From: Alphaproteobacteria bacterium
GTDB lineage: Bacteria > Pseudomonadota > Alphaproteobacteria > SHVZ01
DNA: 64,000 nt
Direction of reading: 5' to 3'
Assembly (NCBI GenBank): GCA_041906305.1
Contig: JAYRJL010000005.1
Span: forward strand, 212,269 to 276,268
The number at the start of each line of letters is the position of its first letter. Within the stretch, counting starts at the first letter, position 1. Positions 10,106 through 30,544 of the stretch are shown here, piece after piece. The translations under genes were made by a program, and so were the position numbers. The notes under the pieces were generated by a model, which saw only the letters and a list, made by a program, of their open reading frames with translations, did not search any database and was not told where the DNA came from.

Positions 10106-10214
10106 TTTTCCCTCCTGCAGCGACATCGTCGCGTTGGGAGGAGGCTACTGGCGTTGGGCGGCGCGAGAAATTTCGGGATTGTACTTAAGGGATACTACGT
10201 AGCCGCGGCGGCCC

Positions 10215-10595
10215 TCAGGACGCGAGCTGGAGCATCGCCTTTTCGATCTCGCTGAACAGGCGCGCGCCGAAGAGCGGCTTCTCGAGAAACGCCTGGACGC
10301 CCAGCGCATCGGCCTGGGCGCGGGACGCGGGATCCCATCGGCCGGTCACCATGATGACGAAGACCCTGTCCCCGCGCTCGCGCAGCTTCTGCATCAGCTC
10401 GATGCCGGTCATCTGCGGCATGTGATTGTCGAGAATGACGCATTCTCCGGCCGTGTCCCGGTCGCGCGCCAGGAACTCGGCCGCGGAAGCGTAGTCGGAG
10501 ACCGAGAAACCACGGGACTCCAGAAGAGCCTTCAGGGAATCCCGCACCATCTCGTCGTCGTCGACGATGTGAACGGTGCGCGCGCCAGTCGTCAT
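10215..10595 (-). CDS. Single-domain response-regulator receiver protein. It is FixT-like and lies between fixJ and fixK.
   Basis: It is 126 aa and contains only a REC domain (VHIVDDDEMVRDSLKALLESRGF...D57-like...VIMVTG...K). It has no output domain. Confidence 0.8.
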   Translation of the reverse strand: MTTGARTVHIVDDDEMVRDSLKALLESRGFSVSDYASAAEFLARDRDTAGECVILDNHMPQMTGIELMQKLRERGDRVFVIMVTGRWDPASRAQADALGVQAFLEKPLFGARLFSEIEKAMLQLAS

Positions 10596-10707
10596 ACCTG
10601 CCCTAACTCCTCCGCTCCGGAATTGGTCTCATGCGAGCGGAGCCGATGTCGTTCACATATGGCGAAAATCCGGATGAATGCCCATTAAGGAGAATTACCT
10701 ATCGTCG

Positions 10708-11322
10708 CTAGCGCGCGATCATCCCGGCCGCCAGGGCCATCCGCACCAGGTGGGAGAGGCTGTCCGCTTCCATCTTCTTCATGAGATTCGCGCGATGGAT
10801 CTCGACGGTGCGCGGGCTGATCTTGAGCTCGAAAGCGATGATCTTGTTCGGGTGGCCAATCACAAGTTGCTCGAGCACGTCGCGCTCGCGCGGAGTCAGC
10901 GCCGCGATCTTGGCCGCGGTGCCGGCGTCCTGGACGTGGTCCTCGCCCGAGCTCGCCTTGGCCTGCTCGAGGGCACGCGCCACGGCGGCGAGGATGATCT
11001 CGTTGCCGTACGGCTTCTCGACGAAGTCGGTGGCGCCGGCCTTCATGGCACGGACTGCCAGCGGCACGTCCCCGTGCCCGGTCACCATGATGACCGGCAG
11101 GCTCGCCGCATCGGCCTTCAGCCGCTCGATCAGCTGCAGGCCGTCCATGCCCGGCATCCTGAGATCGACCACGGCACAGGCCTGGGTCCCCGGGCGAAAG
11201 GCGCCGAGAAACGCCTCGGCGGAGTCGTAGGTGGAAACGTTGAACCCGCGGGATTCGAGCAGCGCTTGCAGGGAGTCCCTGACCGCCTCGTCGTCGTCGA
11301 CGACATAGATCGTTCCGGCCAC
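10708..11322 (-). CDS. fixJ: Two-component response regulator FixJ, with REC and LuxR-type HTH domains.
   Basis: The sequence starts VAGTIYVVDDDEAVRDSLQALLESRGFNV... and has a C-terminal LuxR HTH (LTPRERDVLEQLVIGHPNKIIAFELKISPRTVEIHRANLMKKM). The GTG start sits 10 nt after the fixL stop and has a GGAG RBS. Confidence 0.85.
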   Translation of the reverse strand: MAGTIYVVDDDEAVRDSLQALLESRGFNVSTYDSAEAFLGAFRPGTQACAVVDLRMPGMDGLQLIERLKADAASLPVIMVTGHGDVPLAVRAMKAGATDFVEKPYGNEIILAAVARALEQAKASSGEDHVQDAGTAAKIAALTPRERDVLEQLVIGHPNKIIAFELKISPRTVEIHRANLMKKMEADSLSHLVRMALAAGMIAR

Positions 11323-11335
11323 CGGGCAGCTCCGC

Positions 11336-12823
11336 CTAACCGGCGGGCAGCAGGAAACGGAACACCGTCCCGCCGCCCGGATTGGGTTCCGCCCAGATGC
11401 GCCCGCCATGATCGCCGACGATAGACTGGCTGATCGAGAGTCCGATTCCCATGCCGGTCTTCTTCGTCGTGGTGAAGGGCTTGAACAGGTTTTCCACGAT
11501 CTCGGCCGGGAGGCCCGGTCCGGTGTCGGCGATCGCAACCTCCTGATGGTCGTCGTCGAAACCGCTCGTGCGGATCACGAGCTCGCGCCGTTCGACGCCG
11601 TTCATGGCCTCGATGGCGTTGCGCACCAGGTTCACCACGACCTGCTGGATCTGGATCTTGTCCATGCTGATGGGTCGAAGGTCCGGCGCCAGGTCGTAGA
11701 GGATAGAGATGCCGTCGAGCTTGGCACCGACCGTGGCGAGCGCACCGGCCTCCTCGACGACCATCGAGAGCGATTCCGGGGCACGCTCGACCTCCGTCTT
11801 CTCCACGAAACGTCGCAGCCGCCGGATGATCTGTCCCGCCCGCTCGGCCTGCGCCGCGATCTTGCCGAGGAAGTCGACGATGCGATCCACAGGCGGGCTC
11901 GACGTCGACATCATGTGACGGGTGGCATCGCTGTAGTTGACCACCGCTGTCAGGGGCTGGTTGAGCTCGTGCGCCAGCGAGGACGCGAGCTGGCCCATCG
12001 CGCTCAGCCGCGTGATGTGCTGCATCTCGCCGGTCAGCTCGCGGATGCGGCCTTCGGCCTGGCGAAGATCCGTGGTGTTCCGGCCGATCGTCGAGATCCC
12101 GGTCACCTCTCCCTTGTCGTTGCGGATCGGCGAGAGGGTCAGCGACATGTCGAGCAGGCGGCCGTCCTTGGTCACGCGCTGGGTATCGTACTGGGCGATC
12201 ACCTCTCCCCGACACACGCGTCGGATGAGGTCGTCGACCTCGCCCTTCCGTTCGGGCGGGGCCAGGTCGGCGATCGGCCGGCCGATCATTTCCGCGGCCG
12301 TGTAGCCGTAGGTCAGCTCCGCGCCCCGGTTCCAGGCGGCGACGATGCCGCGGAGATCCTTGCCGATGATGACGTCGTGCGAGGATTCGACGATGGCCGC
12401 GAGCCGGTCGCGCTCCTGCTCGAACTGCTTCTGCCGGGTGAGGTCGTGGATGATGCCGACGAAGATGCTCCGCCCGCCCTGGTGCCCTTCGCCGACCGAG
12501 AGGTACATCGGAAAGACCGAGCCGTCCTTCCGCCGTCCCGTGACCTCGCGCCCGTGGCCGATGATCTTGGCCTTCCCGGTGGTGCGGTAGGCCGCGATGT
12601 AGCGGTCGTGCTCGTCATGATAGGGGGACGGCATCAGCATGCGGATGTTCTGGCCGATCACCTCGGCCGCCGGATAGCCGAACAGCCGCGCGCAGGCCGG
12701 GTTGTAGACCTGGACGATCCCGACGGCGTCGATGACGATGATGCCGTCGACAGCGGTCGTCAGCAGCGCATCGAGCTGAGCGCTTTCGACGTCCCGGCGA
12801 TCGTCGGACCCGGTCCGAATCAT
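11336..12823 (-). CDS. fixL: Oxygen-sensor histidine kinase FixL. A heme-binding PAS domain comes first, then a second PAS, then HisKA/HATPase.
   Basis: The first PAS domain aligns closely with the Bradyrhizobium FixL heme-PAS (NIRMLMPSPYHDEHDRYIAAYRTTGKAKIIGHGREVTGRRKDGSVFPMYLSVGE). The H-box is LAHELNQPL, and a C-terminal ATPase domain (GMGIGLSIS) follows. Confidence 0.85.
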   Translation of the reverse strand: MIRTGSDDRRDVESAQLDALLTTAVDGIIVIDAVGIVQVYNPACARLFGYPAAEVIGQNIRMLMPSPYHDEHDRYIAAYRTTGKAKIIGHGREVTGRRKDGSVFPMYLSVGEGHQGGRSIFVGIIHDLTRQKQFEQERDRLAAIVESSHDVIIGKDLRGIVAAWNRGAELTYGYTAAEMIGRPIADLAPPERKGEVDDLIRRVCRGEVIAQYDTQRVTKDGRLLDMSLTLSPIRNDKGEVTGISTIGRNTTDLRQAEGRIRELTGEMQHITRLSAMGQLASSLAHELNQPLTAVVNYSDATRHMMSTSSPPVDRIVDFLGKIAAQAERAGQIIRRLRRFVEKTEVERAPESLSMVVEEAGALATVGAKLDGISILYDLAPDLRPISMDKIQIQQVVVNLVRNAIEAMNGVERRELVIRTSGFDDDHQEVAIADTGPGLPAEIVENLFKPFTTTKKTGMGIGLSISQSIVGDHGGRIWAEPNPGGGTVFRFLLPAG

Positions 12824-12934
12824 CGAAGGATCCTAGCGCGGTAATCCCAAAACCACGTCTTGGGATACTATATTACCGCAAATTCTTGACGCTTTCTAAT
12901 CAGCCCGCGGAACAGAGCCAGGGTGACGCGGGAC

Positions 12935-19072: not shown

Positions 19073-19108
19073 GCCGTGCCCACGCCGACCGGTTCAGAAT
19101 TGCGCCGG

Positions 19109-19699: not shown

Positions 19700-19717
19700 G
19701 CGGTGCGGCCTTCGACG

Positions 19718-19731: not shown

Positions 19732-19808
19732 GGCGGTCCCCGCGCGCATTGCTAGCTTGTGACGGACGCGCGACGAAACCGTGTCGGCGTCGTGCGAGGG
19801 AGCAACCG

Positions 19809-20114: not shown

Positions 20115-20123
20115 CGCCTGCGG

Positions 20124-20621
20124 CTATCGTGCGGTGATGACGACGAGCAGCCGGTCCTCGAACGAGCCGGCGGCGGGGCTCTGGTCGTCCGTCAGCTCGA
20201 GCTCGAGAAGCTGCGGAGCGCCGCTATCGGCGCCGGCATTCATCGCGAGCTGCGCCTCTCCGTTCTCGAACCGGACTTCGCGTCCGCCGAAGGTCAGGCG
20301 GTAGGGAACGCTCCGGTCGCCGATTTCATCCACGAAGGCCGGCGATCCGTCGCTGGTCGTATTGGTCGAGCTCAGCTTCACGGAGAACAGCTTGTTGTTC
20401 GCGGAGATGTTGAGTTCGGTGAGGATCACCCGCCCGCGACGGGACGCGAGCGGAACCAGCGACGCGGTCTGGGTCATGGATATGCTGGCGCGCGCCGGCA
20501 CATAACCGGCGATCTGAAGATTCGACTTGGGATTGGCCGCGGCCGTGCCCGAGACACTAGCGATCCCGACGGGAAGCATGAGCACCGTCAGGAGACGAAG
20601 GATGGCTGTGCGAACCCCCAT
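20124..20621 (-). CDS. Spore-coat-U (SCPU) domain minor pilus subunit, Csu-type. It is the last gene of the pilus operon.
   Basis: It has a signal peptide (MGVRTAILRLLTVLMLPVGIASVSG). Its size matches CsuA/B-like subunits, and it lies directly downstream of the tip subunit gene. Confidence 0.6.
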   Translation of the reverse strand: MGVRTAILRLLTVLMLPVGIASVSGTAAANPKSNLQIAGYVPARASISMTQTASLVPLASRRGRVILTELNISANNKLFSVKLSSTNTTSDGSPAFVDEIGDRSVPYRLTFGGREVRFENGEAQLAMNAGADSGAPQLLELELTDDQSPAAGSFEDRLLVVITAR

Positions 20622-20647
20622 ACCTTTTATGTAGGCAGCGGAGCCCG

Positions 20648-21583
20648 CTACCGCAAGCTCCAAACCACGAGATTGATGACATCGCCGTAGTCGCCGGCCG
20701 ACGCGTCCTCGGTCGAATCCACAATGAACTCAAGCCTGTGGGTCCGGCCGCCGGGCCCGGTCCTTTCGCTGTTCACGATCGCCGTCGTCTCGCCGCCGTT
20801 GAGCTTGAGCGGGCTTCCGTCGACGAGCACGGTGTAGGGCACGACGCTCTCGTCGCTCGCATCGAGGGGACGCAACGCGCCGCCGTTCATGGACTGGAGA
20901 AGCAGGCGGTAGCCGCCATTGCTTCGCGCTTTCACATGCACCACCTGCCGGTCCCCGGCGCGAAGCTGGCCGAAATGGACAGTGTGGCTGCCGCGGTTGG
21001 GGTCGAAGCCCGTGCCTTCGGCGAAAGACACCTGCGCCACCGACGGCACCGGTGCCGAAACCGCGACGCGGCGGCGATCCCGGACCACGCCCGAGCCGAA
21101 GACGCCTTCGTACAGCGTGAACTCGATCTCGCCGCTGTAGAATCCGGATCCGGCGACCTGCTCCGGCGGGATCGAGAGCACGAGCTGCTGGATGACCGTC
21201 CCGCCCGCCGGAACGGCGCCGACATACATGTCCGCCTCGACCGCGAGCCCCGACGGACGCAGCGGCTGGCCGCCGCTCGCGTCCTTGGAGAGCCCGAATT
21301 CGAGCGAGCCCTCGCCGCCGACCAGGTACCCGGTTCCGTCGCCGCGGCCGTTCGACGGCGAGACTGTCAGATAGTACGCGCAGCCCCCGTCGTTGCTGCG
21401 CACGCGGAAATAGACGAGCTGGATGCGGCGCTGCGGGTCGAAGACGTCGTAGCCGCGGCCGTTGCCGCCGGCCCAGGTGGTCGAGGTGATGTCGCCGATG
21501 TTGATGTTGCACGCGGCCTCGGCGGCGCCGGCGAGGAGGGTCCATGTGGTCGCGGCGCCGAGCAGGAGCTTTCTGAGGTTCAT
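20648..21583 (-). CDS. Large two-domain SCPU-family pilus tip subunit (CsuE-like putative adhesin).
   Basis: It is about 311 aa, with the signal peptide MNLRKLLLGAATTWTLLAGAAEA. It follows the usher gene directly, and its start is 12 bp downstream of the usher stop (the alternative GTG at 21598 would overlap the usher stop). Confidence 0.65.
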   Translation of the reverse strand: MNLRKLLLGAATTWTLLAGAAEAACNINIGDITSTTWAGGNGRGYDVFDPQRRIQLVYFRVRSNDGGCAYYLTVSPSNGRGDGTGYLVGGEGSLEFGLSKDASGGQPLRPSGLAVEADMYVGAVPAGGTVIQQLVLSIPPEQVAGSGFYSGEIEFTLYEGVFGSGVVRDRRRVAVSAPVPSVAQVSFAEGTGFDPNRGSHTVHFGQLRAGDRQVVHVKARSNGGYRLLLQSMNGGALRPLDASDESVVPYTVLVDGSPLKLNGGETTAIVNSERTGPGGRTHRLEFIVDSTEDASAGDYGDVINLVVWSLR

Positions 21584-21594
21584 GGAGAGCGCCC

Positions 21595-24156
21595 TCACGG
21601 TGTGATCGGGTAGGTCAGACGGCCGAGATCGACACGGCCGGTGCTGTCGGCCGGAATATCGAACTCGATCGCCTTGTCGGGGTCGTTCGCCAGCGTCAGC
21701 CGGAAACGGCCCGACGAGAGTCCTTCGACGCGGAAGCGGCCGCCCCGGCTGGTGAAGAAGTCGATCGCGGGACGCGACGGATCGTCGACGGAGGTGATGG
21801 TGCCGGCTTCGAGCGGCAGCGGCTTGTCCTCGGCGTCGACGAGGAGGCCGTCGCCGAGCACGGTCGCACCGGTGCCGACATTGATCACCGTGCCGCTGCG
21901 GTAGGTCGGCTGCAGGTCGTAGACCTGCCGGCCGAGCTCGTAGCCGAGCGGAAGCTCGGGCGCGTCGATGGTGACGTGGTGCTGATAGTAGGATCCCAGC
22001 TCGGGCAGCACGGCGGTGCCGAGAATGTCGGTCCGTGCCTGGGGCGTCTCGCTGATGTTGTTCACCTCGATCGACTGGCCGGCCAGGGACGGGTGCGGGA
22101 CGAAGAGAGCGAAGCTGTCGTTGATCGGCCGCGTGATCGCGGTCTGGCCGCCGGCAAAGGCGATCGCCGTGCCGAAGTTGACCCGGGTCCGAGGATGGGT
22201 CGAGTTGCCGTCGCCGCGCTCGGTCATCGTCGCGTGCGAGGCGGAGGTGGTGAAGCGATAGCCGGTGTAGCCGACGTCGCCGTCGATCGTGTCGCGGCCG
22301 GCGTCGCGGCCGAGCGCAAGGTCTGCCTGGACGCCGTCAACCCGCATCGTCGGCGTATAGGACCAGTCGACCCTGCGGGCGCGCTCGGTCGTATCGTAGG
22401 AGGTGCCGACGCGCTGGCCGGAGCCGCGCGGGAACCAGGAAACGCCGAGGAAGATGCGGTTGTCGCTGCCGCCGTAGCTCGCTTGGCGCGTGCTCAGCAG
22501 CAGCGACGCGGTGACGTCCTCGGCGATCTGCATGCTCATGCTCGCGTCGCCCGTGGTCACGTTCGGCTGGCCGTCGCGCGCGAACTGCCGGGCGACGCCG
22601 AGACTGCCGTAGAGCGTCTCGCTGAGCCGCTGCCCGAACAGCACGCCGAGGCTGAGCGCGACCGGGTTGCTGGCCGAGGTCTGCGAGATGCTGGTGAAGT
22701 CGGGCGAGCGATACGTCGCGGTCGAGGCGAGGAACCGCCCGCGCGAGGTGGTCGACGGGCTCTCGGTGAACCGGTGCTGGATGCGGAAGGCGCCGCCGGT
22801 GCCGGCGAAGCTCGACTGGCTGGCGGAGAGGTCGGAGCGGAAGGTTCCGATGGCGGTCGCGAGCCGCATCTCGGTCCCCACCAGGTTCACGTTCCGCGAG
22901 GCCTGGTAGTTGCCGCCGAGCGTCAGCTGGTCGGTGAGGCCGAAGGTGTGGAACGCCGAGACCACGCGGTCCGTGCGGTCGTAGGTGCGGCCGGCGTTGG
23001 TCGCCGTCGAGGGGAAGCCGATGGCATAGCCGAAATCCTGCTCGCCCTCCGCCAGCACGCTCGCATCGAAGACGAAGGGAAAGCGGATGACGTCGACGCG
23101 GCCGACCTCGTCGACGATCCGCAGCGTCACGTCGTTGGTGCCGCCGACCAAGGGCAGGTCGCGGACGTTGTAGCGGCCGGGCGTGAGGTCGAGGGTCCGC
23201 ATCCGCTGCCCGTTGACGATCACGTCGACGCGGGCGTTGCGGTCGAGGTTCAGGTCGGTCTCGCCGACCGGGGCGCTCGAGCGGTAGGGCTGGAGCCCGA
23301 AGTTGCGGGCGATCGAGATGCCGCCGGCGCGGCGGTAGGACTGGAAGCCACCGATGCCATAGTTGACGTCGCCTATCGACAGCCGGGTGCGGCTCTCCGG
23401 ATCGTCGCGGACGATCCGCGTGTCGCCCCGCGTCCAGGGCGCCGCGCCGATGTCGCGATAGGTCCCGACGCTCTCGATGACGTTGCCGTAGAGATTCAGC
23501 GCCGCGTCGAGGTCGGTGACGATCGGCGTCGACCCGTCGCGGTTCGGAACGAAGTCGTGCCCGGAAAGCAGATTGACGTAGCCGCTGACGTCGGCGGGCG
23601 CGAGGAGCTCCCTGCGTTCGGCACCATACGGGTTGGCGAGGCTGAGCGACTGGGTCGTGCGCATGTCGAGCGGCACGCGCAGCGTCGCCTCGATACGGCC
23701 GATGTCGTAGGCGACGGCGATGCCCTCGCTGCGGATGTCGTCGGCGGTGAGGCGTCCGCCCGAGCCGATCCGCGCCCGCAGCGCCTGCAGCTTCTCGGGC
23801 ACGAGAAACCGCTCCAGCAGCTTGAGCAGGGCAGGGCCGTCGAAGGCGAGGAGCTCGTCCCGGACCGAGATGAAGGCGACGGCCTCGCCCAACGGCAGCT
23901 GCTCGATCTTCACCGGAATCTCGAGGCGGGTCGCCGGCGGCGGCTTTTTCGCCTCGGGCTTGGACGGGGTCGGCTCGTCGGTCTTGGGGGCGGCGGCGAT
24001 GCCCGGCTGCAGCGGCAGGGTCCGCATGGACGCCACGCCGGACGGATCCGCGAGAGCGCTGCCGGCGACCGCCGTCAGCGCGAGGGCGAGGAGACCCGGG
24101 ATCAGCCCGCGGGTGTCGCCGAAAAGGAAAGGGCGGCGGCAGTGACGACGCGACAT
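21595..24156 (-). CDS. Outer-membrane fimbrial usher protein.
   Basis: It is 853 aa with a signal peptide. Its size and overall architecture match PapC/CsuD ushers, and it lies between the chaperone and tip genes. Confidence 0.85.
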   Translation of the reverse strand: MSRRHCRRPFLFGDTRGLIPGLLALALTAVAGSALADPSGVASMRTLPLQPGIAAAPKTDEPTPSKPEAKKPPPATRLEIPVKIEQLPLGEAVAFISVRDELLAFDGPALLKLLERFLVPEKLQALRARIGSGGRLTADDIRSEGIAVAYDIGRIEATLRVPLDMRTTQSLSLANPYGAERRELLAPADVSGYVNLLSGHDFVPNRDGSTPIVTDLDAALNLYGNVIESVGTYRDIGAAPWTRGDTRIVRDDPESRTRLSIGDVNYGIGGFQSYRRAGGISIARNFGLQPYRSSAPVGETDLNLDRNARVDVIVNGQRMRTLDLTPGRYNVRDLPLVGGTNDVTLRIVDEVGRVDVIRFPFVFDASVLAEGEQDFGYAIGFPSTATNAGRTYDRTDRVVSAFHTFGLTDQLTLGGNYQASRNVNLVGTEMRLATAIGTFRSDLSASQSSFAGTGGAFRIQHRFTESPSTTSRGRFLASTATYRSPDFTSISQTSASNPVALSLGVLFGQRLSETLYGSLGVARQFARDGQPNVTTGDASMSMQIAEDVTASLLLSTRQASYGGSDNRIFLGVSWFPRGSGQRVGTSYDTTERARRVDWSYTPTMRVDGVQADLALGRDAGRDTIDGDVGYTGYRFTTSASHATMTERGDGNSTHPRTRVNFGTAIAFAGGQTAITRPINDSFALFVPHPSLAGQSIEVNNISETPQARTDILGTAVLPELGSYYQHHVTIDAPELPLGYELGRQVYDLQPTYRSGTVINVGTGATVLGDGLLVDAEDKPLPLEAGTITSVDDPSRPAIDFFTSRGGRFRVEGLSSGRFRLTLANDPDKAIEFDIPADSTGRVDLGRLTYPITP

Positions 24157-24196
24157 GCGCCTTCGCCTCCCGCCGCCCTCGTGTACGCGCGAGGGA

Positions 24197-24967
24197 TTAC
24201 TGTGCCGTGTACTTGAAGTCGGCCTTGATCGCGCCTTCGGGCAGATCCTGGGGCAGCGGCAGCAGGAACCGGCGCTGAGACTTGGCGAGGATGTTCTCGC
24301 CGGTCACGGTCTCGGCGACCGCCGACTTGTCGAGGGTGCGGCTGACGCTGCCGGCGGAAACGGTCACCGAGGGAGCGTCGATGATCGCATGGCGGCTGCC
24401 GCGATTCTCGAGCACGACCTCGAGCAGCTTGCCGCCGCCGCGCGGGGCGGGCACGGCCTGCGCCGAGGCGACGACCACGTCGGCCTTCACGCCCTTCGGC
24501 ACGACGTAGATCGAGCCGACGTAGCGGACGGTGAGGAACACCGAGGCGCCGGGCGTGTCGCGGCGCTTATTGAGCGGGGTCTCTTCGGCGATGATGCGGT
24601 AGGAGAGCTCCTGCTTGGGCGCCGGATCGCCGATCCACTTGGCGCGCACCAGGCGCGAGGTCTTCGGCTGGAGCTGGATCTCCGTCGGGAAGACGGTGAA
24701 GTCCTCGGTCGGCTCGAGCGTCTCCTGGCCGTTGATGTCGACCTTGCGGAGCGCCATCGCCACGGTGACGGTGATCGGCTCGTCGCGGTCGTTCTCGACC
24801 TGGAAGGTCTGGTTGGAGCCGCGGCCCGACGGATCGAAATCCTGCGAGATCGGGACGATCTGGAAGGCGCTGGCGGCGGACGAGATCGCGCCCGAGACCA
24901 GCACGCCGGCGACGAGGGCGGCCACCTTGCGGCCGCCCATGTCGGGGAGAAGCTTGAACAGGTTCAT
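24197..24967 (-). CDS. Periplasmic pilus chaperone (PapD-like / CsuC).
   Basis: The N-terminus MNLFKLLPDMGGRKVAALVAGVLVSGAISSAASA is a signal peptide, and an Ig-like chaperone fold follows (FQIVPISQDF...). A GAGG RBS is present. The start was chosen at M89 of the track ORF. Confidence 0.8.
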   Translation of the reverse strand: MNLFKLLPDMGGRKVAALVAGVLVSGAISSAASAFQIVPISQDFDPSGRGSNQTFQVENDRDEPITVTVAMALRKVDINGQETLEPTEDFTVFPTEIQLQPKTSRLVRAKWIGDPAPKQELSYRIIAEETPLNKRRDTPGASVFLTVRYVGSIYVVPKGVKADVVVASAQAVPAPRGGGKLLEVVLENRGSRHAIIDAPSVTVSAGSVSRTLDKSAVAETVTGENILAKSQRRFLLPLPQDLPEGAIKADFKYTAQ

Positions 24968-24974
24968 GGCAGCC

Positions 24975-25571
24975 TCACTGCATGTTGAGAGAGATGGTGA
25001 CGATGTCTTGGTAGGTACCGGCGCCGAGGTCCGACGACCCGGTGAAGTTGAGGTAGATCTGGCTTGTCTCGTTGGTGACCTTGCCATGCGTGACTTCGCG
25101 GCCGACCTGGCCGACGCAGCTCGTGGCGAGGAGCCCGGTGACGACCGGGGTGCTTCCGCCGGTCGCCGGATTGACGAACTCGGCGGAGTAGGGGAGGAAC
25201 TCGTCCGACCCCGTGTTGAGGATCTTGCCACCGGCCGGTGCCACCGCGCAGCTCATCGAGGTGACGCTGACGATGTAGCTGCGCCTGCCGTTGCAGTCCT
25301 GGAGAGCGCTGCCGATCATGATCCGGTGCGCTCCCGGCGCGGTGATCGGAAGCTCGACGGCCTGGGACGTCGAGGAAACGTTGATCGTGCATTTGCCCTC
25401 GACCGTCCCCGAGAGCAGGATTGCAGTCGCGGCCTCGCAGACGTCGCAGACGTCGAGCAGCCATGGAGCCGTGAGCGCCCCGCCCGTGAGGGCCGCCGCG
25501 AGGGCCAGCGCCAGCCATGCTTTGCGGAAGTTCGGCATGTTGCTGCGGAAATCATCGTCGCTGCGTTTCAA
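24975..25571 (-). CDS. SCPU-domain major pilin paralog 4, Csu-type.
   Basis: It has a signal peptide, a CDVCEAA motif and a C-terminal GTYQDIVTISLNMQ donor-strand-like motif. Confidence 0.75.
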   Translation of the reverse strand: MKRSDDDFRSNMPNFRKAWLALALAAALTGGALTAPWLLDVCDVCEAATAILLSGTVEGKCTINVSSTSQAVELPITAPGAHRIMIGSALQDCNGRRSYIVSVTSMSCAVAPAGGKILNTGSDEFLPYSAEFVNPATGGSTPVVTGLLATSCVGQVGREVTHGKVTNETSQIYLNFTGSSDLGAGTYQDIVTISLNMQ

Positions 25572-25587
25572 GCTCGAGGCGTGCCGG

Positions 25588-26160
25588 TCACTTCGTCGCG
25601 AGCGTGACGGTCAGGGTGTCGGTGTAGGTACCCGCCGTGAGCGCACCCGAGCCCGTGTAGTTGAGATAGACGTAGCTGGTCTCGGCAAAGATCGGCACGC
25701 CGGTGACGTCGCGCGCGACCTGCGAGGAGCAGCTGCTGAGCAGAAGATCGGTGGTGTCGGTGCTGGTGCCGGTGGCGGGATTGTCGAACTCGACGGAGTA
25801 CTGAAGATAGTCGGTCGCCGGCGTCGGCCCGACGACCTTCGCGCCGGTCGGAGCCGCCGCACAGTGCGACGAGGTCACGGTCAGCGTGTAGCCGTCAGGG
25901 TCGTTGCAGCTCTGCACGACGTTGGCGACCATGACGCGGGTGACGCCGCCCGTCAGGGTGAGGTTGGAGGCGGCCGGAAGGGCCGTCGCATCGACCGAGC
26001 AGGTCGGTCCGACGATTCCGGAGAGCGGGATCGTGTCGGAGAGCTGCGCCATGCAGATGTCGCACTTAGAGAATGACCAGACGCCGACGAGCGCGAGTCC
26101 GAGGGCGGCGAGGCCGCCGGCGATCAGGTTGCGCCTGGTGAACTTGCTGGGGGACTTCAT
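25588..26160 (-). CDS. SCPU-domain major pilin paralog 3.
   Basis: The sequence runs MKSPSKFTRRNLIAGGLAALGLALVGVWSFSKCDICMAQ...GTYTDTLTVTLATK. The start at 26160 is consistent with the FixK box spacing. Confidence 0.75.
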   Translation of the reverse strand: MKSPSKFTRRNLIAGGLAALGLALVGVWSFSKCDICMAQLSDTIPLSGIVGPTCSVDATALPAASNLTLTGGVTRVMVANVVQSCNDPDGYTLTVTSSHCAAAPTGAKVVGPTPATDYLQYSVEFDNPATGTSTDTTDLLLSSCSSQVARDVTGVPIFAETSYVYLNYTGSGALTAGTYTDTLTVTLATK

Positions 26161-26225
26161 CTTCGTTCCTCTCGCGGCTGCGGAGCCGGATAAGTGCAAT
26201 TTGATGGGTATTTGCGGTGCCGACC

Positions 26226-26239
26226 TTGAGATGGATCAA
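26226..26239. promoter_or_regulatory. FixK/FNR-type anaerobox TTGAGATGGATCAA upstream of pilin paralog 3.
   Basis: Its centre is about 72 bp upstream of the ATG at 26160. Confidence 0.55.
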
Positions 26240-26258
26240 GCAAAACCGGCGTCGCCGC

Positions 26259-26852
26259 CTACTTGATGTTCATCGTGACGGTGAGCGTGTCCTGGTAGGT
26301 GCCGGCGGCAAGCGCGCCGTCGCCGGTGAAGTTCACGAAGATGTTGCTGTTCTCGCCGAACGCCTTCCAGTTGGAGACGTCGCGCGCGACCTGGCCGGTG
26401 CAGGCGCTCTGCAGCAGGTTGGTGACGGTGGCCTGGCTGCCGCCGCCGGTCGGGTTGTTGAACTCCGCCGTGTAGCGCAGAACCTCGTTCGAGGCGGCAT
26501 CGATCACCTTGGCGCCGGCCGTGCCCGAGGCGCAGTTGAGCGAGGTGATGGTGAGCGTGTAGCCGATCTTCTTGTTGCAGGTCTGTGCGGCGGCGCCAAC
26601 CTGCACATGCTGCGCGCCCGTCGTGGTCAGAGGCAGGTTGGACGCGCCCGTCGCCGTGCTGACGCTGAGCGTGCAGTTCTGCGCCACGGCGCCTTGCAGC
26701 AGCACCGTCGTCGCGGCGGCGCAGATCTCGCAGTCCTCGGCGAACTGCGAGGCGACCACCGCGGCGCCGACGAGGACGGCGGCCACGGCCGCCGCAGCGA
26801 GAGGAGCGCGGCGATTTTTGCGGTTGAGGATGGTCATGTCTGCCGACTTCAC
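26259..26852 (-). CDS. SCPU-domain major pilin paralog 2.
   Basis: The sequence ...FAEDCEICAAATTVLLQG...GTYQDTLTVTMNIK identifies it. Its ATG and the stop of paralog 1 overlap in an ATGA arrangement. Confidence 0.75.
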   Translation of the reverse strand: MKSADMTILNRKNRRAPLAAAAVAAVLVGAAVVASQFAEDCEICAAATTVLLQGAVAQNCTLSVSTATGASNLPLTTTGAQHVQVGAAAQTCNKKIGYTLTITSLNCASGTAGAKVIDAASNEVLRYTAEFNNPTGGGSQATVTNLLQSACTGQVARDVSNWKAFGENSNIFVNFTGDGALAAGTYQDTLTVTMNIK

Positions 26853-27415
26853 TTCACGTTCATGGTGACGGTGATCGTGTCCTGGTACGTGCCGGCGGCG
26901 AGGTTGCCGTCACCGGTGAAGTTCACGAAGACCAGGCTGCTCTCGTTCCGCGCCTTCCAGTTGGTGACGTCGCGACCGACCTGGCTCGCGCAGGCCGACT
27001 GCAGCAGGCCGGTCACGGTCGCCTGGCTGCCGCCGTCCGTCGGGTTGTTGAACTCGGTGCTGTAGGCCAGGACCTCGGTCGACACCGGATCGATCACCTT
27101 CGCGCCGGCAGTGCCGCTCGCGCAGTTTGCCGAGCTGACGGTAAGCGTGTAGCCGACCTTCTTGTTGCAACTCTGGAGGACCGAGCCGACCTGGACATGC
27201 TGGCTGCCGGCGGTCGTCAGGGGCAGGTTCGCCGCCGCGGCCGTCGAACTGACGTCGAGCGTGCAGTTCTGCGCGACGGTGCCCTGCAGCAGGATCTGGT
27301 TCGCCGCCTCGCACACCTCGCAGTCGCTGAACAGCGACAGCCCGGCGGCAATCGCGATCGCGCCGGCACCGGCGGCGAGCAGATGCCACCGCTTGAACTG
27401 GGGTTTGAACGACAT
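26849..27415 (-). CDS. SCPU-domain major pilin paralog 1, the first gene of the pilus operon.
   Basis: The sequence runs MSFKPQFKRWHLLAAGAGAIAIAAGLSLFSDCEVCEAAN...GTYQDTITVTMNVK. Confidence 0.75.
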   Translation of the reverse strand: MSFKPQFKRWHLLAAGAGAIAIAAGLSLFSDCEVCEAANQILLQGTVAQNCTLDVSSTAAAANLPLTTAGSQHVQVGSVLQSCNKKVGYTLTVSSANCASGTAGAKVIDPVSTEVLAYSTEFNNPTDGGSQATVTGLLQSACASQVGRDVTNWKARNESSLVFVNFTGDGNLAAGTYQDTITVTMNVK

Positions 27416-27502
27416 GGTTTGCCCTTTCCGAGATCAGGAGGGTGGCCTGGCGGACCACCGCACTTTCTGTTTCCAGGAGAGCAAATCGCCGCCTGACGCA
27501 CC

Positions 27503-27516
27503 TTGATCTGCGTCAA
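27503..27516. promoter_or_regulatory. FixK/FNR-type anaerobox TTGATCTGCGTCAA upstream of the pilus operon.
   Basis: Its centre is about 94 bp upstream of the ATG at 27415. Confidence 0.6.
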
Positions 27517-27550
27517 ACAAAATTGAGTAAAATGCGGCGTTTTCGAGGCG

Positions 27551-28603
27551 TCAGCGAAGTTGTTCGACCGCCTGCAACCGACGCTCCGGCGATGCGGCAC
27601 GGTGGTGGAAGTAGGCCGCGACGGCGACGAGGATCGCGCCGACGAAGATGGCGATGTGGCGATCCACGACGATCGGGTCGCCCCGCCATGCGGCCCTCGT
27701 CTCGACCAAGACCATCAGCGTGCCCAGCAGGCTCGCGAAGGCCCCGAGCAGATCGAGACGCCAGGCGCGGTACCCGAACAGCGAACCCCGCCCATAGCGC
27801 GCGGTCGAGCCTCCCTGCGCGAGCACGATGCGATAGACGAGCCTTGCGGCGGCGAGCACCGCGATGGTTCCGACCACGAATCCGGCGGTCTGCAGCAGCG
27901 GCGCGAACGGTGCATGGATGCCGAACGTGTTGCGCACCAGCAGGAGCGGGTAGTTGTAGAGCGCGTGAAGGGCGACCGGGACGTAGAGGGCGGCCGCATA
28001 GCTGCGCCATCTGAACGAAGCGCCGTGACTCGCGCCCATGACGTTGCCGAACTTGGCGCGCGCGACATAGACACCGGCGATCACGCCCAGCGCGCCGTGG
28101 GTGGGTACGGTGAGGATGCTGCGGATGACCGCGTGCTCGCGCCACGCATCGGTGAGATGCACGGCGAGCAGGAGGTTCTCGTAGGCGGCCAGCCCGAGCC
28201 CGACGGCGGCGCCGTAGATGACGCCCTCCATCGGATGGTCGTAGGCGAGGAACCGGCGTGAGAAGAGAAGAAGGATAAGGACCTTGAGCGTCTCCTCCGG
28301 GATCGCGATGTCGACCACCGCCTGAAGCAGGGTCGCCACCGACCGGTCCGGCTCGAGCCAGGCGACATCCTCGCCGAACAGGAGCTGCAGGGCGTCGAGG
28401 ATGTAGTCGCCGATGAAGCTCGCCGCGGGTGAGATCACGTGCAGCGCCGAGGTGCTGAGGGCGCCGAGGAGGAACGTCCCGACGACCGCGTAGGCCGGCT
28501 CGGGCCGCTTGTCGAAGAACGTCAGGGTCAGGAGATAGAGAAGCGGCGGCGCTACGGCCGCCGCGCCGAGCACGGTGACCATGGCTTCAGCGGCCGCGCC
28601 CAT
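27551..28603 (-). CDS. PrsW-family intramembrane metalloprotease-like protein (polytopic membrane protein).
   Basis: Multiple TM helices carry the PrsW motifs EExxK (IPEETLKV), FxxxE-like (AAYEN) and conserved His residues (PTHGALG, HALYNYP). The start is uncertain (M51 or M58 of the track ORF). Confidence 0.6.
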   Translation of the reverse strand: MGAAAEAMVTVLGAAAVAPPLLYLLTLTFFDKRPEPAYAVVGTFLLGALSTSALHVISPAASFIGDYILDALQLLFGEDVAWLEPDRSVATLLQAVVDIAIPEETLKVLILLLFSRRFLAYDHPMEGVIYGAAVGLGLAAYENLLLAVHLTDAWREHAVIRSILTVPTHGALGVIAGVYVARAKFGNVMGASHGASFRWRSYAAALYVPVALHALYNYPLLLVRNTFGIHAPFAPLLQTAGFVVGTIAVLAAARLVYRIVLAQGGSTARYGRGSLFGYRAWRLDLLGAFASLLGTLMVLVETRAAWRGDPIVVDRHIAIFVGAILVAVAAYFHHRAASPERRLQAVEQLR

Positions 28604-28676
28604 GGGACTGCTTCGGCTCGAAGCGGGGCGACCCCGCCGGAATGCACGGGTTTGAGCGCATGCAGGGCTCGATCGC

Positions 28677-30365
28677 TCAATCCAGGTGGATGGTGCGGCC
28701 GCCCATGCGCTGGGCCGCTTCGGCGGCCTGGCGACGGGTGGCGCTGACCGCATGCTCGGCCGCCCAGACGCGCATCTGCGCGATCTGCTCGCGCCGGGTC
28801 TGCGCCAACGGCACGAGCCGCGGCAGGATCGCCTCGAAATCCGCCATCTCGAGGTCGCCCTCGACCTTGGCGTTCCGCGTGCGCTGGAAGGATTCGATCA
28901 GCGCCTCGGACACCCACGCCTCGATCTCGGCGCCGCTCATGCGGATGTCGGGGCCGAAATGCTTCTCGCCCGACAGCTCGACCAGGCGATCGAGGTCGAA
29001 CTTGGACGGATCGCGGCGACGCCGGCGGATCTGGACCTCGAAGATCTGCTTACGCTCCTCGTCGTTCGGCAGGTCGATGAAGAACACCTCGTCGAACCGC
29101 CCCTTGCGCAGTATTTCCGGCGGCAGGGCGGCGACGTCGTTGGCGGTGGCGAAGATGAACACCGGCGCGGTCTTCTCCTGCATCCAGGTGAGCAGGGTGC
29201 CGAACACGCGAAGCGAGACGCCGCTGTCGCCGATCATGCGGCTGGAATGGGCGAGGCCCTTCTCGATCTCGTCGATCCACAGCACGCAGGGGGCGATCGC
29301 CTCGCAGGTCTTGAGCGCGTTCCGCATGTGCTCTTCCGACGAGCCGATCAGCGAGGAGAAGATCTTGCCCATGTCGAGCTTGACCAGGGGGAGGCCCCAG
29401 GCGGCGGCCGTGCACTTGGCGGACAGCGACTTGCCGCAGCCGGGGATGCCGGTCAGCAGCACGCCCTTGGGCGGATCGAGGCCGTAGGCCTTCGCCTCCC
29501 GGCCGAAGGTCAGGCTGCGGATCTGCAGCCAGCGCTTGAGCACGTCGAGGCCGCCGACGTCGCCGGCCGAAAGCGACCGGTTGTCGATGTATTCGAGGAT
29601 TCCCGACTTCCGGATGATCTGCTTCTTCTCGTCGAACATGAAGCGCGTGTCTTCGAGCGTGATCGCCCGGTCGTGGACGAGGGCCTTGGCCAGGCAGTTT
29701 TCGATCTCGGCGAGCGTCAGGCCCATCGCCGCGTCCGTCAGCGCCTCGATCATCTCGCGCCCGGGCTCGACGGTGATCGTGGTGTTCTCGGCGACGCGGG
29801 TGACGAACTGCTCGACGAAGCGGCCCACCTGCTCGCGATCCGGAACCGGGAAGTCGACGACCGTGATCTCCTTCTCGAGCTCGAGAGGGATCTCGAGGCT
29901 CGGGGAGATGATCACGCAGGAGGCGCTGAAGCCGTGGCCGCGGATGGCCATGGCGAACTCGCGCAGCCGGCGGCGGTAGATCGCATCGACGGGCTTGTCG
30001 CTGAGGAAGGGGAACGGGTCGAGAAGCACGAACAGGTGCCGCTTGCCGTCCTGGGCGATGCGCTCGCACTGGTCGATCGCGATCTTGAGATCGGCAAGGG
30101 AGTCCTTGAAGGTCTGCGGCTTCTCGTCCCCGTCCTCGAGCTTCGAGACCAGGCCGCGCACCACCGTCCAGACGTGGATGTGATAGGTCAGCGCCTTGGC
30201 GACGTCGACGACGACCTTGAGCGCCCGCTCCTCCTCGTAGGTGAAGACCTGCACGATGGGAAAGCGGGCGCGCAGCAGGTCGGCGATCTCGTTGGCGAAC
30301 GCGGTCTTGAAGGTCGCAGCCGGATATCCGGCTGTCGCGACCTTGGCCAGGGAGACGGGGCACAT
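28677..30365 (-). CDS. AAA+ ATPase of the classical AAA clade (FtsH/Cdc48-like ATPase domain) with a 270-aa N-terminal domain of unknown function.
   Basis: Walker A is GVLLTGIPGCGKS, Walker B is CVLWIDEIE, and the second region of homology is ATANDVAALPPEILRKGRFDEVFFIDLP. The N-terminal 270 aa are unassigned. Confidence 0.8.
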   Translation of the reverse strand: MCPVSLAKVATAGYPAATFKTAFANEIADLLRARFPIVQVFTYEEERALKVVVDVAKALTYHIHVWTVVRGLVSKLEDGDEKPQTFKDSLADLKIAIDQCERIAQDGKRHLFVLLDPFPFLSDKPVDAIYRRRLREFAMAIRGHGFSASCVIISPSLEIPLELEKEITVVDFPVPDREQVGRFVEQFVTRVAENTTITVEPGREMIEALTDAAMGLTLAEIENCLAKALVHDRAITLEDTRFMFDEKKQIIRKSGILEYIDNRSLSAGDVGGLDVLKRWLQIRSLTFGREAKAYGLDPPKGVLLTGIPGCGKSLSAKCTAAAWGLPLVKLDMGKIFSSLIGSSEEHMRNALKTCEAIAPCVLWIDEIEKGLAHSSRMIGDSGVSLRVFGTLLTWMQEKTAPVFIFATANDVAALPPEILRKGRFDEVFFIDLPNDEERKQIFEVQIRRRRRDPSKFDLDRLVELSGEKHFGPDIRMSGAEIEAWVSEALIESFQRTRNAKVEGDLEMADFEAILPRLVPLAQTRREQIAQMRVWAAEHAVSATRRQAAEAAQRMGGRTIHLD

Positions 30366-30530: not shown

Positions 30531-30544
30531 TTGATGTAGGTCAA
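30531..30544. promoter_or_regulatory. FixK/FNR-type anaerobox TTGATGTAGGTCAA between the divergent AAA-ATPase and transporter genes.
   Basis: It overlaps the GTG that the track uses as the ORF start. The true transporter start is therefore probably downstream, for example the ATG at 30687. Confidence 0.5.

What the first reader, a model, noticed from the sequence alone, without database searches (positions are those of the whole stretch)
20124..27516. Complete Csu-type (spore-coat-U) chaperone-usher pilus operon with four tandem major-pilin paralogs and two FixK boxes
Eight genes on one strand make up the operon: four paralogous SCPU pilins of about 190 aa, a PapD-like chaperone, an 853-aa usher, a 311-aa two-domain SCPU tip-like protein and one more SCPU subunit. 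One anaerobox lies before pilin 1 (27503). A second, independent one lies before pilin 3 (26226). This arrangement suggests oxygen-limited expression and a possible change in pilin composition via an internal promoter. Csu pili are known from Acinetobacter biofilms. A four-fold tandem array of major pilins under FNR-type control is not a described arrangement.
Basis: partly seen in the sequence, partly recalled or inferred. Interest (0 to 1): 0.7.

Follow-up and report, generated by a model that had tools for sequence, protein, structure and literature searches.

The report
Low-oxygen pilus operon with dedicated protease

Summary
Eight minus-strand genes (20124-27415) encode four paralogous pilins, a PapD-like chaperone, an 853-aa usher, a two-domain tip-like protein and a Cys-free pilin-like subunit. 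TTGA-N6-TCAA boxes lie at 27503 and 26226. The system is archaic/sigma (Csu-like) by fold, profile and gene order. It is a deep, rare and unannotated branch: all four window pilins score below Pfam's SCPU threshold.

FixK control is strongly supported by comparison. The window has 12 boxes against 0.16 expected, and it encodes fixL, fixJ, a response regulator and fixK. Every close homologous locus keeps a box 70-115 bp before pilin 1, often more inside the pilin array. One locus places fixLJ-fixK directly against the cluster.

The cluster is larger than reported. An AAA ATPase (28677-30365) and a PrsW-family intramembrane protease (27551-28753), with a third box at 30531, flank the pilins in all seven lineages whose pilins carry an 8-9-residue leader cassette, [DE]-C-[DE]-[IV]-C-[EQ]-A-A. 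Relatives with ordinary leaders lack PrsW.

Working model: FixLJ-FixK induces an adhesive fibre whose major subunits need PrsW/AAA-assisted leader processing. That processing step is inferred, not shown. Verdict: new variant of a known kind, interest 0.6.

The parts
30531..30544 (.). FixK/FNR box (TTGATGTAGGTCAA) upstream of the AAA ATPase gene
   Evidence: An equivalent box precedes the AAA gene in L001 (7120), L003 (17867), L075 (7037) and L078 (7071). In the window it could also serve the divergent BT1/MFS gene at 30546+.
28677..30365 (-). Soluble AAA+ ATPase (562 aa), a conserved companion of the pilus cluster
   Evidence: Pfam AAA 96 bits at residues 302-431, no other domain. Walker A GIPGCGKS is visible in the translation. 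Homologues of 50-98% identity are adjacent to the pilus genes in L001, L003, L007, L037, L075 and L078, on either side and either strand. PADLOC gives only a generic IetA AAA-domain match.
27551..28753 (-). PrsW-family (M82) glutamic intramembrane protease. The probable start is at 28603 (350 aa), like its homologues; the ORF reaches 28753.
   Evidence: PF13367 86.9 bits (cut-off 23.5). NCBIfam PrsW equivalog 81 bits, below its cut-off of 225. The motifs PEExxK, GxGFAxxEN, HGALG and LHxx[YF][ND] are conserved. It lies immediately upstream of pilin 1 in all seven lineages with cassette leaders.
27503..27516 (.). FixK/FNR box 1; its centre is 94 bp before the pilin 1 ATG
   Evidence: A box 70-115 bp before the first pilin is present in L001, L003, L006, L007, L012, L037, L075 and L078, and in L005 by position.
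26849..27415 (-). Pilin 1 (188 aa), with the cassette leader ...SDCEVCEA|ANQILLQGTV
   Evidence: AF2 model pLDDT 87. Best PDB folds are CsuA/B: 7zl4, 6fqa, 6fm5. SCPU 17.8 bits, below threshold.
26259..26837 (-). Pilin 2 (192 aa from the ATG), 65% identical to pilin 1, with leader ...AEDCEICAA|ATT
   Evidence: The start was chosen by comparison with orthologues P0004 and L007.
26226..26239 (.). FixK/FNR box 2 (TTGATCCATCTCAA on the coding strand; one half-site is off consensus). Its centre is 72 bp before the pilin 3 ATG.
   Evidence: It is conserved in L007 (11176). Other loci carry internal boxes before other pilins: L001 before pilins 2 and 4, L003 and L037 before pilin 2.
25588..26160 (-). 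Pilin 3 (190 aa), with leader ...FSKCDICMA|QLSDTIPLSG
   Evidence: SCPU 18.6 bits.
24975..25538 (-). Pilin 4 (187 aa), with leader ...LDVCDVCEA|ATAILLSG
   Evidence: It matches the family HMM at E 1e-75.
24197..24967 (-). Periplasmic PapD-like chaperone (256 aa), archaic type
   Evidence: PapD_N 28.3 bits. Alone it finds no PDB chaperone. A 19-sequence profile hits CsuC at E 1.6e-8 and EcpB at 4e-4, and no classical chaperone.
21595..24156 (-). Outer-membrane usher (853 aa)
   Evidence: PF00577 69.8 bits. FimD in the PDB at E 3e-5. Best annotated relatives are 30-34% identical; weaker hits are annotated 'Sigma-fimbriae usher' or lie beside 'spore coat U' genes.
20648..21583 (-). Two-domain tip-adhesin-like subunit (311 aa) with an ordinary Sec leader
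   Evidence: hhalign of its C-terminal domain against the pilin profile: probability 87%, E 3.6e-6. Both domains end in a G-x-Y-x-D-like motif. The AF2 model (pLDDT 71) matches CfaE/CfaB, CsuE (6fjy_D, E 1.2e-6), CupB6 and FimH. Homologues P0066, P0068 and P0071 carry PF05229.
20124..20621 (-). Small Cys-free pilin-like subunit (165 aa) with an ordinary Sec leader; last gene of the cluster
   Evidence: phmmer finds the major pilins of the Spirochaete-type loci L018, L057, L060 and L019. Its L006 orthologue hits the pilin HMM at E 1.9e-8. It shares the C-terminal motif AAGSFEDRLLVVI.
9365..12832 (-). Likely regulators. fixL is at 11336-12832. fixJ is at about 10708-11330. A single-domain response regulator is at 10215-10628. 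fixK is at 9365-10126.
   Evidence: FixL model 449 bits, below the equivalog cut-off. Response_reg+GerE, Response_reg, and cNMP_binding+HTH_Crp_2 domains. FixK has the E-T-V-S-R recognition helix and no N-terminal Cys cluster.

Best explanation
The locus encodes a low-oxygen-induced adhesive fibre built by an archaic (sigma, Csu-like) chaperone-usher pathway, extended by two inner-membrane or cytoplasmic accessory proteins.

Proposed mechanism:
1. At low O2, FixL phosphorylates FixJ and FixJ induces fixK. All three genes lie 10-17 kb away in the window.
2. FixK binds TTGA-N6-TCAA boxes placed as in class II promoters. This fires three units: AAA-prsW (box 30531), pilins 1-2 (box 27503), and pilins 3-4-chaperone-usher-tip-small subunit (box 26226, plus read-through).
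3. The four major-type pilins are exported with a distinctive leader. An ordinary n+h region is followed by an inserted acidic cassette, [DE]-C-[DE]-[IV]-C-[EQ]-A-A, abutting the donor-strand N-terminus.
4. I infer that the PrsW-type intramembrane protease releases these precursors at the periplasmic face. PrsW is known to cut a type II membrane protein just outside the membrane, and the pre-pilin has that topology. The AAA ATPase would then clear or present the cytoplasmic/transmembrane leader remnant.
5. The CsuC-like chaperone caps the pilins. The usher polymerises them by donor-strand exchange behind the two-domain tip protein. The Cys-free last subunit acts as an adaptor or terminator.

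Shown here: gene content, folds and profiles, the box statistics, and conservation of the boxes and of PrsW/AAA adjacency.
Inferred: induction by O2 limitation, PrsW/AAA acting on the pilin leader, a heteropolymeric fibre, and the adhesive role.
For: Chaperone-usher identity:
- Usher and PapD_N score above their Pfam cut-offs.
- The pilin model's best folds are CsuA/B.
- The chaperone profile's best PDB hit is CsuC.
- SCPU is matched by 14 of 32 family members.
- The tip model matches CfaE, CsuE and CupB6, and its C-terminal domain aligns to the pilin profile.

FixK control:
- 12 boxes against 0.16 expected.
- fixL, fixJ, a response regulator and fixK are in the window.
- Boxes precede pilin 1 and the AAA gene in all close loci from at least six lineages. 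They are absent from distant homologous loci with under 37% identity.
- L078 has fixL-fixJ-RR-fixK immediately upstream of AAA-prsW-pilins.

PrsW/AAA link:
- PrsW lies directly upstream of pilin 1 in all 7 lineages with cassette leaders whose upstream DNA is visible.
- PrsW is seen in none of the 4-5 close loci with ordinary leaders.
- AAA stays adjacent even when it has moved to the other side and strand (L003, L037).
- PrsW homologues of 43% identity or less are not next to pili.
- The cassette occurs only in pilins among all ORFs of the window and about 80 loci.
- Cassette leaders are about 9 residues longer than ordinary ones.
- The catalytic motifs of PrsW are intact.
Against: - There are no expression data. 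Boxes of this type are also bound by other CRP/FNR paralogues.
- The internal box is off consensus at one position.
- The cassette ends in C-x-A|A, which is also compatible with signal peptidase I, so PrsW may not be the processing enzyme.
- The cassette/PrsW co-occurrence may reflect a single ancestral event in one alphaproteobacterial subclade and is not phylogenetically independent.
- L012 has the AAA gene nearby although its pilins have ordinary leaders and no PrsW is in view.
- In L003 and L037, pilin 1 has [YF]-D-[IV]-x-E-A-A without cysteines. In L001 and L037 some pilins have plain leaders.
- Chaperone-usher assembly is classically independent of ATP and of dedicated inner-membrane factors.
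- The window pilins fail the SCPU gathering threshold, and no usher phylogeny was made.
Confidence: 0.7

Rival explanations
1. It is an ordinary FixK-regulated archaic chaperone-usher pilus. PrsW and AAA are co-regulated neighbours with a separate hypoxia-related job, such as membrane-protein turnover or regulated proteolysis. The pilin leaders are cut by signal peptidase I.
For: The cassette ends in a site compatible with signal peptidase I: Cys at -3 and Ala at -1. AAA-prsW has its own box and a 135-bp gap to pilin 1. L012 keeps AAA near pili whose pilins have ordinary leaders. All PrsW-bearing loci may be one clade.
Against: PrsW adjacency tracks the leader type in 7 of 7 cassette loci against 0 of 4-5 ordinary-leader loci. 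AAA remains adjacent after rearrangement (L003, L037). The nearest PrsW relatives outside this subfamily have unrelated contexts. No anti-sigma/ECF sigma pair, the known PrsW substrate system, is present in any locus (gene lists).
Confidence: 0.35
2. The boxes are used by a different CRP/FNR-family regulator (for example an FnrN-, AadR-, Dnr- or NnrR-like protein). The cluster would then respond to NO, nitrate respiration or redox state rather than to FixLJ-sensed oxygen.
For: TTGA-N6-TCAA is shared by many CRP/FNR paralogues (established knowledge). Only one such regulator was identified in the 64-kb window, and the rest of the genome was not seen.
Against: fixL-fixJ-RR-fixK lies in the window, amid 12 boxes. 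In L078 it lies immediately next to the cluster. The local FixK has the E-x-x-S-R helix.
Confidence: 0.15
3. The product is not a pilus but a secreted surface coat or sheath layer, as with Myxococcus spore coat protein U exported by the Mcu chaperone-usher-like system.
For: The family is a distant branch of SCPU, which is named after a spore-coat protein. There are several near-equivalent major subunits.
Against: The pilins have a donor-strand-like N-terminus and a CsuA/B-like fold. A two-domain tip-adhesin-like gene follows the usher, as in csu. The host appears to be a Rhodospirillales-like alphaproteobacterium with no known sporulation.
Confidence: 0.07

Closest known systems
Csu pili of Acinetobacter baumannii (archaic/sigma chaperone-usher; csuA/B-A-B-C-D-E)
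   Same: Gene order: several pilin genes, then chaperone, usher and a two-domain tip adhesin. The pilin fold is closest to CsuA/B. The chaperone profile is closest to CsuC. The tip model matches CsuE. The family has SCPU-type subunits.
   Different: There is no detectable pairwise sequence similarity to the Csu proteins. The window pilins fall below the SCPU threshold. The four pre-chaperone genes are close paralogues (45-65% identity), not one major and two minor subunits. An extra Cys-free subunit follows the tip gene. Pilins carry a CxxC leader cassette. A PrsW protease and an AAA ATPase are attached. Promoters carry FixK boxes, whereas csu is controlled by BfmRS (from my own knowledge).
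CupA fimbriae of Pseudomonas aeruginosa under Anr (FNR homologue)
   Same: A chaperone-usher fimbria whose expression is linked to anaerobiosis through an FNR-family regulator (Vallet-Gely et al. 2007, as summarised in PMC12071387).
   Different: CupA is a classical chaperone-usher system, and Anr acts with the local cgrABC regulators. Here the boxes sit directly before the pilin genes, occur several times within the array, and are conserved across genera.
PrsW site-1 protease of Bacillus subtilis (RsiW/sigma-W pathway)
   Same: Same Pfam family with intact catalytic motifs. PrsW cleaves a single-pass N-in/C-out membrane protein just outside the membrane (established knowledge). A pre-pilin with an uncleaved leader has that topology.
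   Different: It scores 81 bits against the equivalog cut-off of 225. It is 335-357 aa with a C-terminal extension. No anti-sigma or ECF sigma gene is nearby. It is paired with an AAA ATPase and with pilin genes.
FixLJ-FixK regulons of Alphaproteobacteria (Bradyrhizobium FixK2, Caulobacter, Rhodopseudomonas)
   Same: The box consensus TTGA(T/C)-N4-(G/A)TCAA, the fixL-fixJ-(fixT-like RR)-fixK gene set, and co-regulated Usp genes.
   Different: The searched literature contains no paper holding both 'FixK' and 'chaperone-usher'. The three papers holding FixK together with 'usher' or 'fimbrial' do not describe a FixK-controlled chaperone-usher cluster; two were checked.

Membership tests
Chaperone-usher pilus systems (general) | Outer-membrane usher (PF00577) | tested here: met
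   69.8 bits against a cut-off of 27.1. FimD at E 3e-5 in the PDB.
Chaperone-usher pilus systems (general) | PapD-like periplasmic chaperone | tested here: met
   PapD_N 28.3 bits against a cut-off of 23. The profile hits CsuC at 1.6e-8. PapD_C (PF02753) was not detected.
Chaperone-usher pilus systems (general) | Ig-like pilin subunits with an N-terminal donor strand and an incomplete fold | tested here: met
   The AF2 model (pLDDT 87) has CsuA/B, CfaB, Caf1, PapE and FimG as its top PDB folds. Donor-strand exchange itself cannot be tested here.
Archaic / sigma (Csu-type, SCPU) chaperone-usher systems | Subunits belong to PF05229 (SCPU) at the gathering threshold | tested here: inconclusive
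   Window pilins score 17.8, 12.2 and 18.6 bits, and pilin 4 scores nothing, against a threshold of 22.4. SCPU is still the only recurrent Pfam hit of the family: 14 of 32 members at E<=0.01, best 4e-6. Some homologues carry a precomputed PF05229 annotation.
Archaic / sigma (Csu-type, SCPU) chaperone-usher systems | Chaperone of the archaic (CsuC-like) rather than the classical type | tested here: met
   The profile search of the PDB returns only CsuC (E 1.6e-8) and EcpB (4e-4), with no PapD, FimC or Caf1M.
Archaic / sigma (Csu-type, SCPU) chaperone-usher systems | Usher falls in the sigma clade in a phylogeny with reference ushers | not tested
   Indirect evidence only. tblastn hits of 25-29% identity are annotated 'Sigma-fimbriae usher' or lie beside 'spore coat U' genes. 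The best hits (30-34%) are annotated generically.
Archaic / sigma (Csu-type, SCPU) chaperone-usher systems | Gene order: pilins, chaperone, usher, two-domain tip adhesin | tested here: met
FixK/FNR regulon | TTGA-N6-TCAA box at promoter distance from the gene | tested here: met
   Box centres lie 94 bp before pilin 1, 72 bp before pilin 3 and 172 bp before the AAA gene. There are 12 boxes against 0.16 expected.
FixK/FNR regulon | Box conserved before orthologous genes in other genomes | tested here: met
   Found in L001, L003, L005, L006, L007, L012, L037, L075 and L078. Absent from distant loci.
FixK/FNR regulon | Transcription induced at low O2 and dependent on FixK | not testable with these tools
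   Needs RNA measurements and mutants.
PrsW (M82) intramembrane proteases | PF13367 domain with the conserved EExxK and His motifs | tested here: met
   86.9 bits. The motifs are conserved in 13 aligned sequences.
PrsW (M82) intramembrane proteases | Functional equivalence to B. subtilis PrsW (site-1 cleavage of anti-sigma RsiW) | tested here: not met
   NCBIfam equivalog 81 bits against a cut-off of 225. No sigma or anti-sigma genes appear in any of the loci.

The most novel reading that the evidence does not exclude
A subfamily of archaic chaperone-usher pili has recruited a dedicated PrsW-type intramembrane protease and a cytoplasmic AAA+ ATPase. Together they mature pilins carrying a special leader cassette ([DE]-C-[DE]-[IV]-C-[EQ]-A-A). 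This would be a 'prepilin protease plus ATPase' layer on a pathway regarded as independent of ATP and of dedicated inner-membrane factors. The whole module would be hard-wired to the FixLJ-FixK oxygen sensor through several promoters inside the pilin array.
Probability: 0.35. Interest if true: 0.8.

Novelty: new variant of a known kind. Interest (0 to 1): 0.6.

Why it matters
Chaperone-usher pili are the textbook case of fibre assembly that needs only Sec, one chaperone and one usher. A conserved intramembrane protease and an AAA ATPase tied to a distinctive pilin leader would add a new maturation or control step. It would also give PrsW-family proteases a second kind of substrate besides anti-sigma factors. 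Separately, the locus offers a clean, conserved example of FixLJ-FixK directly driving an adhesin in free-living and wastewater or marine Alphaproteobacteria. That links oxygen limitation to attachment or aggregation, and it is directly testable with a few mutants. The pilin family itself is rare (32 clusters at E<=1e-30 among 1.84 billion representatives) and is annotated only as hypothetical.

Tried and rejected
- Single-sequence PDB search with the chaperone found no chaperone. The pilin profile against PDB sequences found nothing relevant. Structure prediction and a chaperone profile were needed instead.
- NCBIfam has no model for the pilins, chaperone, tip protein or small protein.
- The sigma-70 promoter scan found 0 sites. 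The terminator-like sites were no more frequent than in shuffles and all lie inside genes. So neither a terminator between pilins 2 and 3 nor recognisable -10/-35 elements could be supported.
- The Rfam scan of 19500-31000 found nothing.
- Defence-system reading of AAA+PrsW: PADLOC gives only a generic IetA AAA-domain match and nothing for PrsW. Rejected.
- Hypothesis that cassette leaders have longer, signal-anchor-like hydrophobic cores: the longest uncharged run does not differ from ordinary leaders (median 22 against 22, p 0.39). Only total leader length differs (45 against 36, p 1e-6). The cassette is therefore an insertion, not a longer h-region.
- CxxC as a haem (CxxCH) site or a lipobox: the sequence does not fit either (direct reading).
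- CxxC as an obligatory redox or metal site: weakened, because L003 and L037 pilin 1 replace both Cys with aromatic/aliphatic residues while keeping D-[IV]-x-E-A-A.
- One call failed on wrong coordinates.
- L012 could not be extended past its end to see whether a PrsW gene follows its AAA gene.


Full report
OBSERVATION

The minus strand between 20124 and 27415 carries a tight row of eight genes with high third-position GC. They are:
- four pilin paralogues: 26849-27415, 26259-26837, 25588-26160 and 24975-25538 (187-192 aa)
- a 256-aa chaperone: 24197-24967
- an 853-aa usher: 21595-24156
- a 311-aa protein: 20648-21583
- a 165-aa protein: 20124-20621

The gaps are 7-50 nt, except about 100 nt between pilins 2 and 3. 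Pilins 2-4 are 65, 47 and 45% identical to pilin 1. The two TTGA-N6-TCAA boxes are exactly at 27503-27516 and 26226-26239.

WHAT THE PROTEINS ARE

Pfam places the usher (69.8 bits) and the chaperone N-domain (28.3 bits) above threshold. The pilins reach SCPU only below threshold (17.8, 12.2 and 18.6 bits, and no hit for pilin 4, against 22.4). The last two proteins match nothing. NCBIfam has no model for any protein except the usher.

Pairwise searches do not reach the Csu proteins. The chaperone alone finds no PDB chaperone. A pilin profile finds no PDB pilin.

Deeper methods agree on the archaic (sigma, Csu-like) group:
- An AlphaFold model of pilin 1 (pLDDT 87) has CsuA/B as its best PDB folds (7zl4, 6fqa, 6fq0, 6fm5; E 3e-5 to 8e-4). 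Other chaperone-usher pilins follow.
- A 19-sequence chaperone profile hits CsuC (E 1.6e-8) and EcpB (4e-4), and no classical chaperone.
- SCPU is the only Pfam family matched repeatedly by pilin family members (14 of 32, best 4e-6).
- The 311-aa protein has two pilin-like domains, each ending in a G-x-Y-x-D-type motif. Its C-terminal domain aligns to the pilin profile (hhalign probability 87%, E 3.6e-6).
- The model of the 311-aa protein (pLDDT 71, with only one of five models confident) matches CfaE/CfaB, CsuE, CupB6 and FimH.
- The 165-aa protein is a Cys-free pilin relative. By phmmer it finds the major pilins of distant, Spirochaete-type loci.
- The usher's best annotated relatives are only 30-34% identical. 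Weaker hits are labelled sigma-fimbriae ushers or sit beside spore-coat-U genes.

The family is rare. There are 64 clusters at 90% identity in 5.8 billion proteins. A profile search of 1.84 billion representatives gives 32 at E<=1e-30, 139 at E<=1e-10 and 793 at E<=1e-3. Almost all are unnamed. The closest genome is an uncultured alphaproteobacterial MAG (L007, pilin 1 98% identical). Thalassobaculum and Rhodospirillaceae MAGs come next.

REGULATION

The window is a FixK island. It has 12 perfect TTGA-N6-TCAA sites against 0.16 expected, and no shuffle exceeded 2. All sites are intergenic, and ten of the twelve fit TTGA(T/C)-N4-(G/A)TCAA.

The window also encodes a FixL-like kinase, a FixJ-type regulator, a single-domain response regulator and a CRP/FNR protein. 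The last has the E-T-V-S-R recognition helix and no FNR-type N-terminal cysteine cluster.

The box before pilin 1 is conserved in every close homologous locus, 70-115 bp before the start codon: L001, L003, L006, L007, L012, L037, L075 and L078, and L005 by position. Loci whose pilins are under 37% identical (Spirochaetes, Bacteriovoracaceae and others) have no such boxes.

Extra boxes inside the pilin array recur, but at different places:
- before pilin 3 in the window and L007
- before pilins 2 and 4 in L001
- before pilin 2 in L003 and L037
- before the usher in L075 and L078

In L078 the fixL-fixJ-RR-fixK genes lie immediately upstream of the cluster.

This is strong comparative evidence for FixK-type control, although no expression was measured. 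All the promoters use the same kind of box. The internal ones therefore look more like dosage or threshold devices than a qualitative switch. Box 2 is off consensus at one position, and pilin genes probably duplicated together with their promoters.

Directly upstream of pilin 1 lie a PrsW-family intramembrane protease (27551-28753; PF13367 86.9 bits) and a soluble AAA+ ATPase (28677-30365). A third box at 30531 precedes them.

The same pair accompanies the pilus genes in seven independent lineages: window/L007, L001/L002, L003/4/8, L037, L038/L075, L039 and L041/L078.
- Where upstream DNA is visible, PrsW always lies immediately before pilin 1.
- AAA lies next to PrsW, or on the far side on the opposite strand in L003 and L037. 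Its box travels with it.
- PrsW homologues of 43% identity or less sit in unrelated contexts.
- The catalytic motifs are intact.

These are exactly the loci whose pilins have an unusual leader. After a normal n+h region comes an inserted, highly conserved acidic cassette, [DE]-C-[DE]-[IV]-C-[EQ]-A-A. It directly abuts the position where ordinary-leader homologues are cleaved.
- Cassette leaders are about 9 residues longer.
- The cassette occurs in no other ORF of the window or of about 80 fetched loci.
- Close relatives with ordinary leaders (L005, L006, L012, L040, L009) show no PrsW.
- The tip and small subunits have ordinary leaders.

MECHANISM

I propose that FixLJ-FixK turns on three promoters at low oxygen. 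The major-type pilins are made as precursors whose cassette leader is handled by the PrsW-like protease. PrsW is known to cut a membrane protein of the same N-in/C-out topology just outside the membrane. The AAA ATPase would act on the cytoplasmic side. Chaperone, usher, tip and terminal subunit would then build a Csu-like, probably heteropolymeric, adhesive fibre.

The PrsW/AAA step is inference from co-occurrence, and there are several caveats:
- The cassette ends in a C-x-A|A site that signal peptidase I could use.
- The association may stem from a single ancestral event.
- L012 has AAA without cassette leaders.
- Some pilins in PrsW loci lack the cysteines or the whole cassette.

I put about 0.8 on the archaic-type chaperone-usher pilus identity, about 0.75 on FixK-type low-oxygen control, and about 0.35-0.4 on PrsW/AAA acting on the pilin leader.

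COMPARISON AND NOVELTY

The system works like Csu pili and belongs, by fold, profile and synteny, to the archaic group. It is a distinct deep branch, and one defining feature, SCPU at threshold, is not met by the window pilins.

Several pilin genes before the chaperone are normal for csu-like operons. The copy number here varies from 2 to 5 among relatives. The 'four-fold array' is therefore not in itself new.

FNR-type control of chaperone-usher fimbriae has a precedent in Anr and cupA. No paper in the searched library combines FixK with chaperone-usher, or PrsW with pilin and usher.

The new elements are the direct, multiple and conserved FixK boxes, the leader cassette and the PrsW/AAA companions. 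I rate this a new variant of a known kind, interest 0.6.

Noticed in passing
window 5982-19731 and 55958: The window is a FixK-box island. Besides the three boxes of the pilus cluster, nine further perfect boxes sit before or between other genes. These include two Usp genes (5153-6073, 8833-9339) and a Pat-like acyl-CoA synthetase/GNAT protein (6043-8799, with twin boxes at 5982 and 6039). They also include an L,D-transpeptidase (12991-13944) and a 100-aa ORF with no Pfam or NCBIfam match (19812-20114, box 19718). Others lie near a PfkB kinase (18105-19040) and SH3/ABC genes near 55958.
   Followed up: partly
window 15055-17308: A Host_attach / baeRF-family-12 protein (15055-15651, minus strand) is divergent from a beta-CASP metallo-beta-lactamase RNase (15680-17308). 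The two share a FixK box at 15595. The RNase scores 320 bits on the 'type VII Cas14' model, far below its cut-off of 800. A CBS-domain protein follows at 16992-18083.
   Followed up: no
L078 3410-13111: In this metagenomic contig, fixL-fixJ-response regulator-fixK lie immediately upstream of AAA-prsW-pilin-pilin-chaperone-usher. Boxes precede the AAA gene, pilin 1 and the usher.
   Followed up: yes
L003 9296-9904; L037 9292-9912; P0031, P0033, P0034, P0037, P0040: In some PrsW-bearing loci the first pilin replaces C-x-x-C with G-[YF]-D-[IV]-[LFI]-E-A-A. The acidic/aliphatic pattern of the cassette is kept without the cysteines. In L001 (pilins 2 and 3) and L037 (pilin 3), plain Sec leaders coexist with cassette leaders.
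   Followed up: partly
L012 9707-20435: A Rhodospirillaceae MAG locus has ordinary-leader pilins, a box before pilin 1 and four more boxes downstream. A 52%-identical AAA ATPase starts about 4 kb after the tip gene and is cut by the end of the locus. Whether a PrsW gene follows could not be seen.
   Followed up: partly
L013-L036, L044-L072: The same gene order (pilin(s)-chaperone-usher-two-domain protein) is widespread at 24-37% pilin identity in MAGs labelled Spirochaetes, Bacteriovoracaceae/Bdellovibrionales and Limisphaerales, among others. Many of their pilins lack all cysteines. None has PrsW, AAA or FixK boxes.
   Followed up: partly
window 28603-28753: If the PrsW gene starts at the first ATG (28753), it overlaps the end of the AAA gene by 77 nt and gains 50 N-terminal residues absent from homologues. 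The start at 28603 (350 aa) fits the homologues better.
   Followed up: partly
window 27516-27522 and 26239-26245 (coding strand): Both pilin-promoter boxes share extended flanks (ttttg[t/c]-TTGA...TCAA-ggt). This suggests the promoter was duplicated along with the pilin gene. In L001 the boxes before pilins 1 and 4 are identical (TTGATCTGCATCAA).
   Followed up: no
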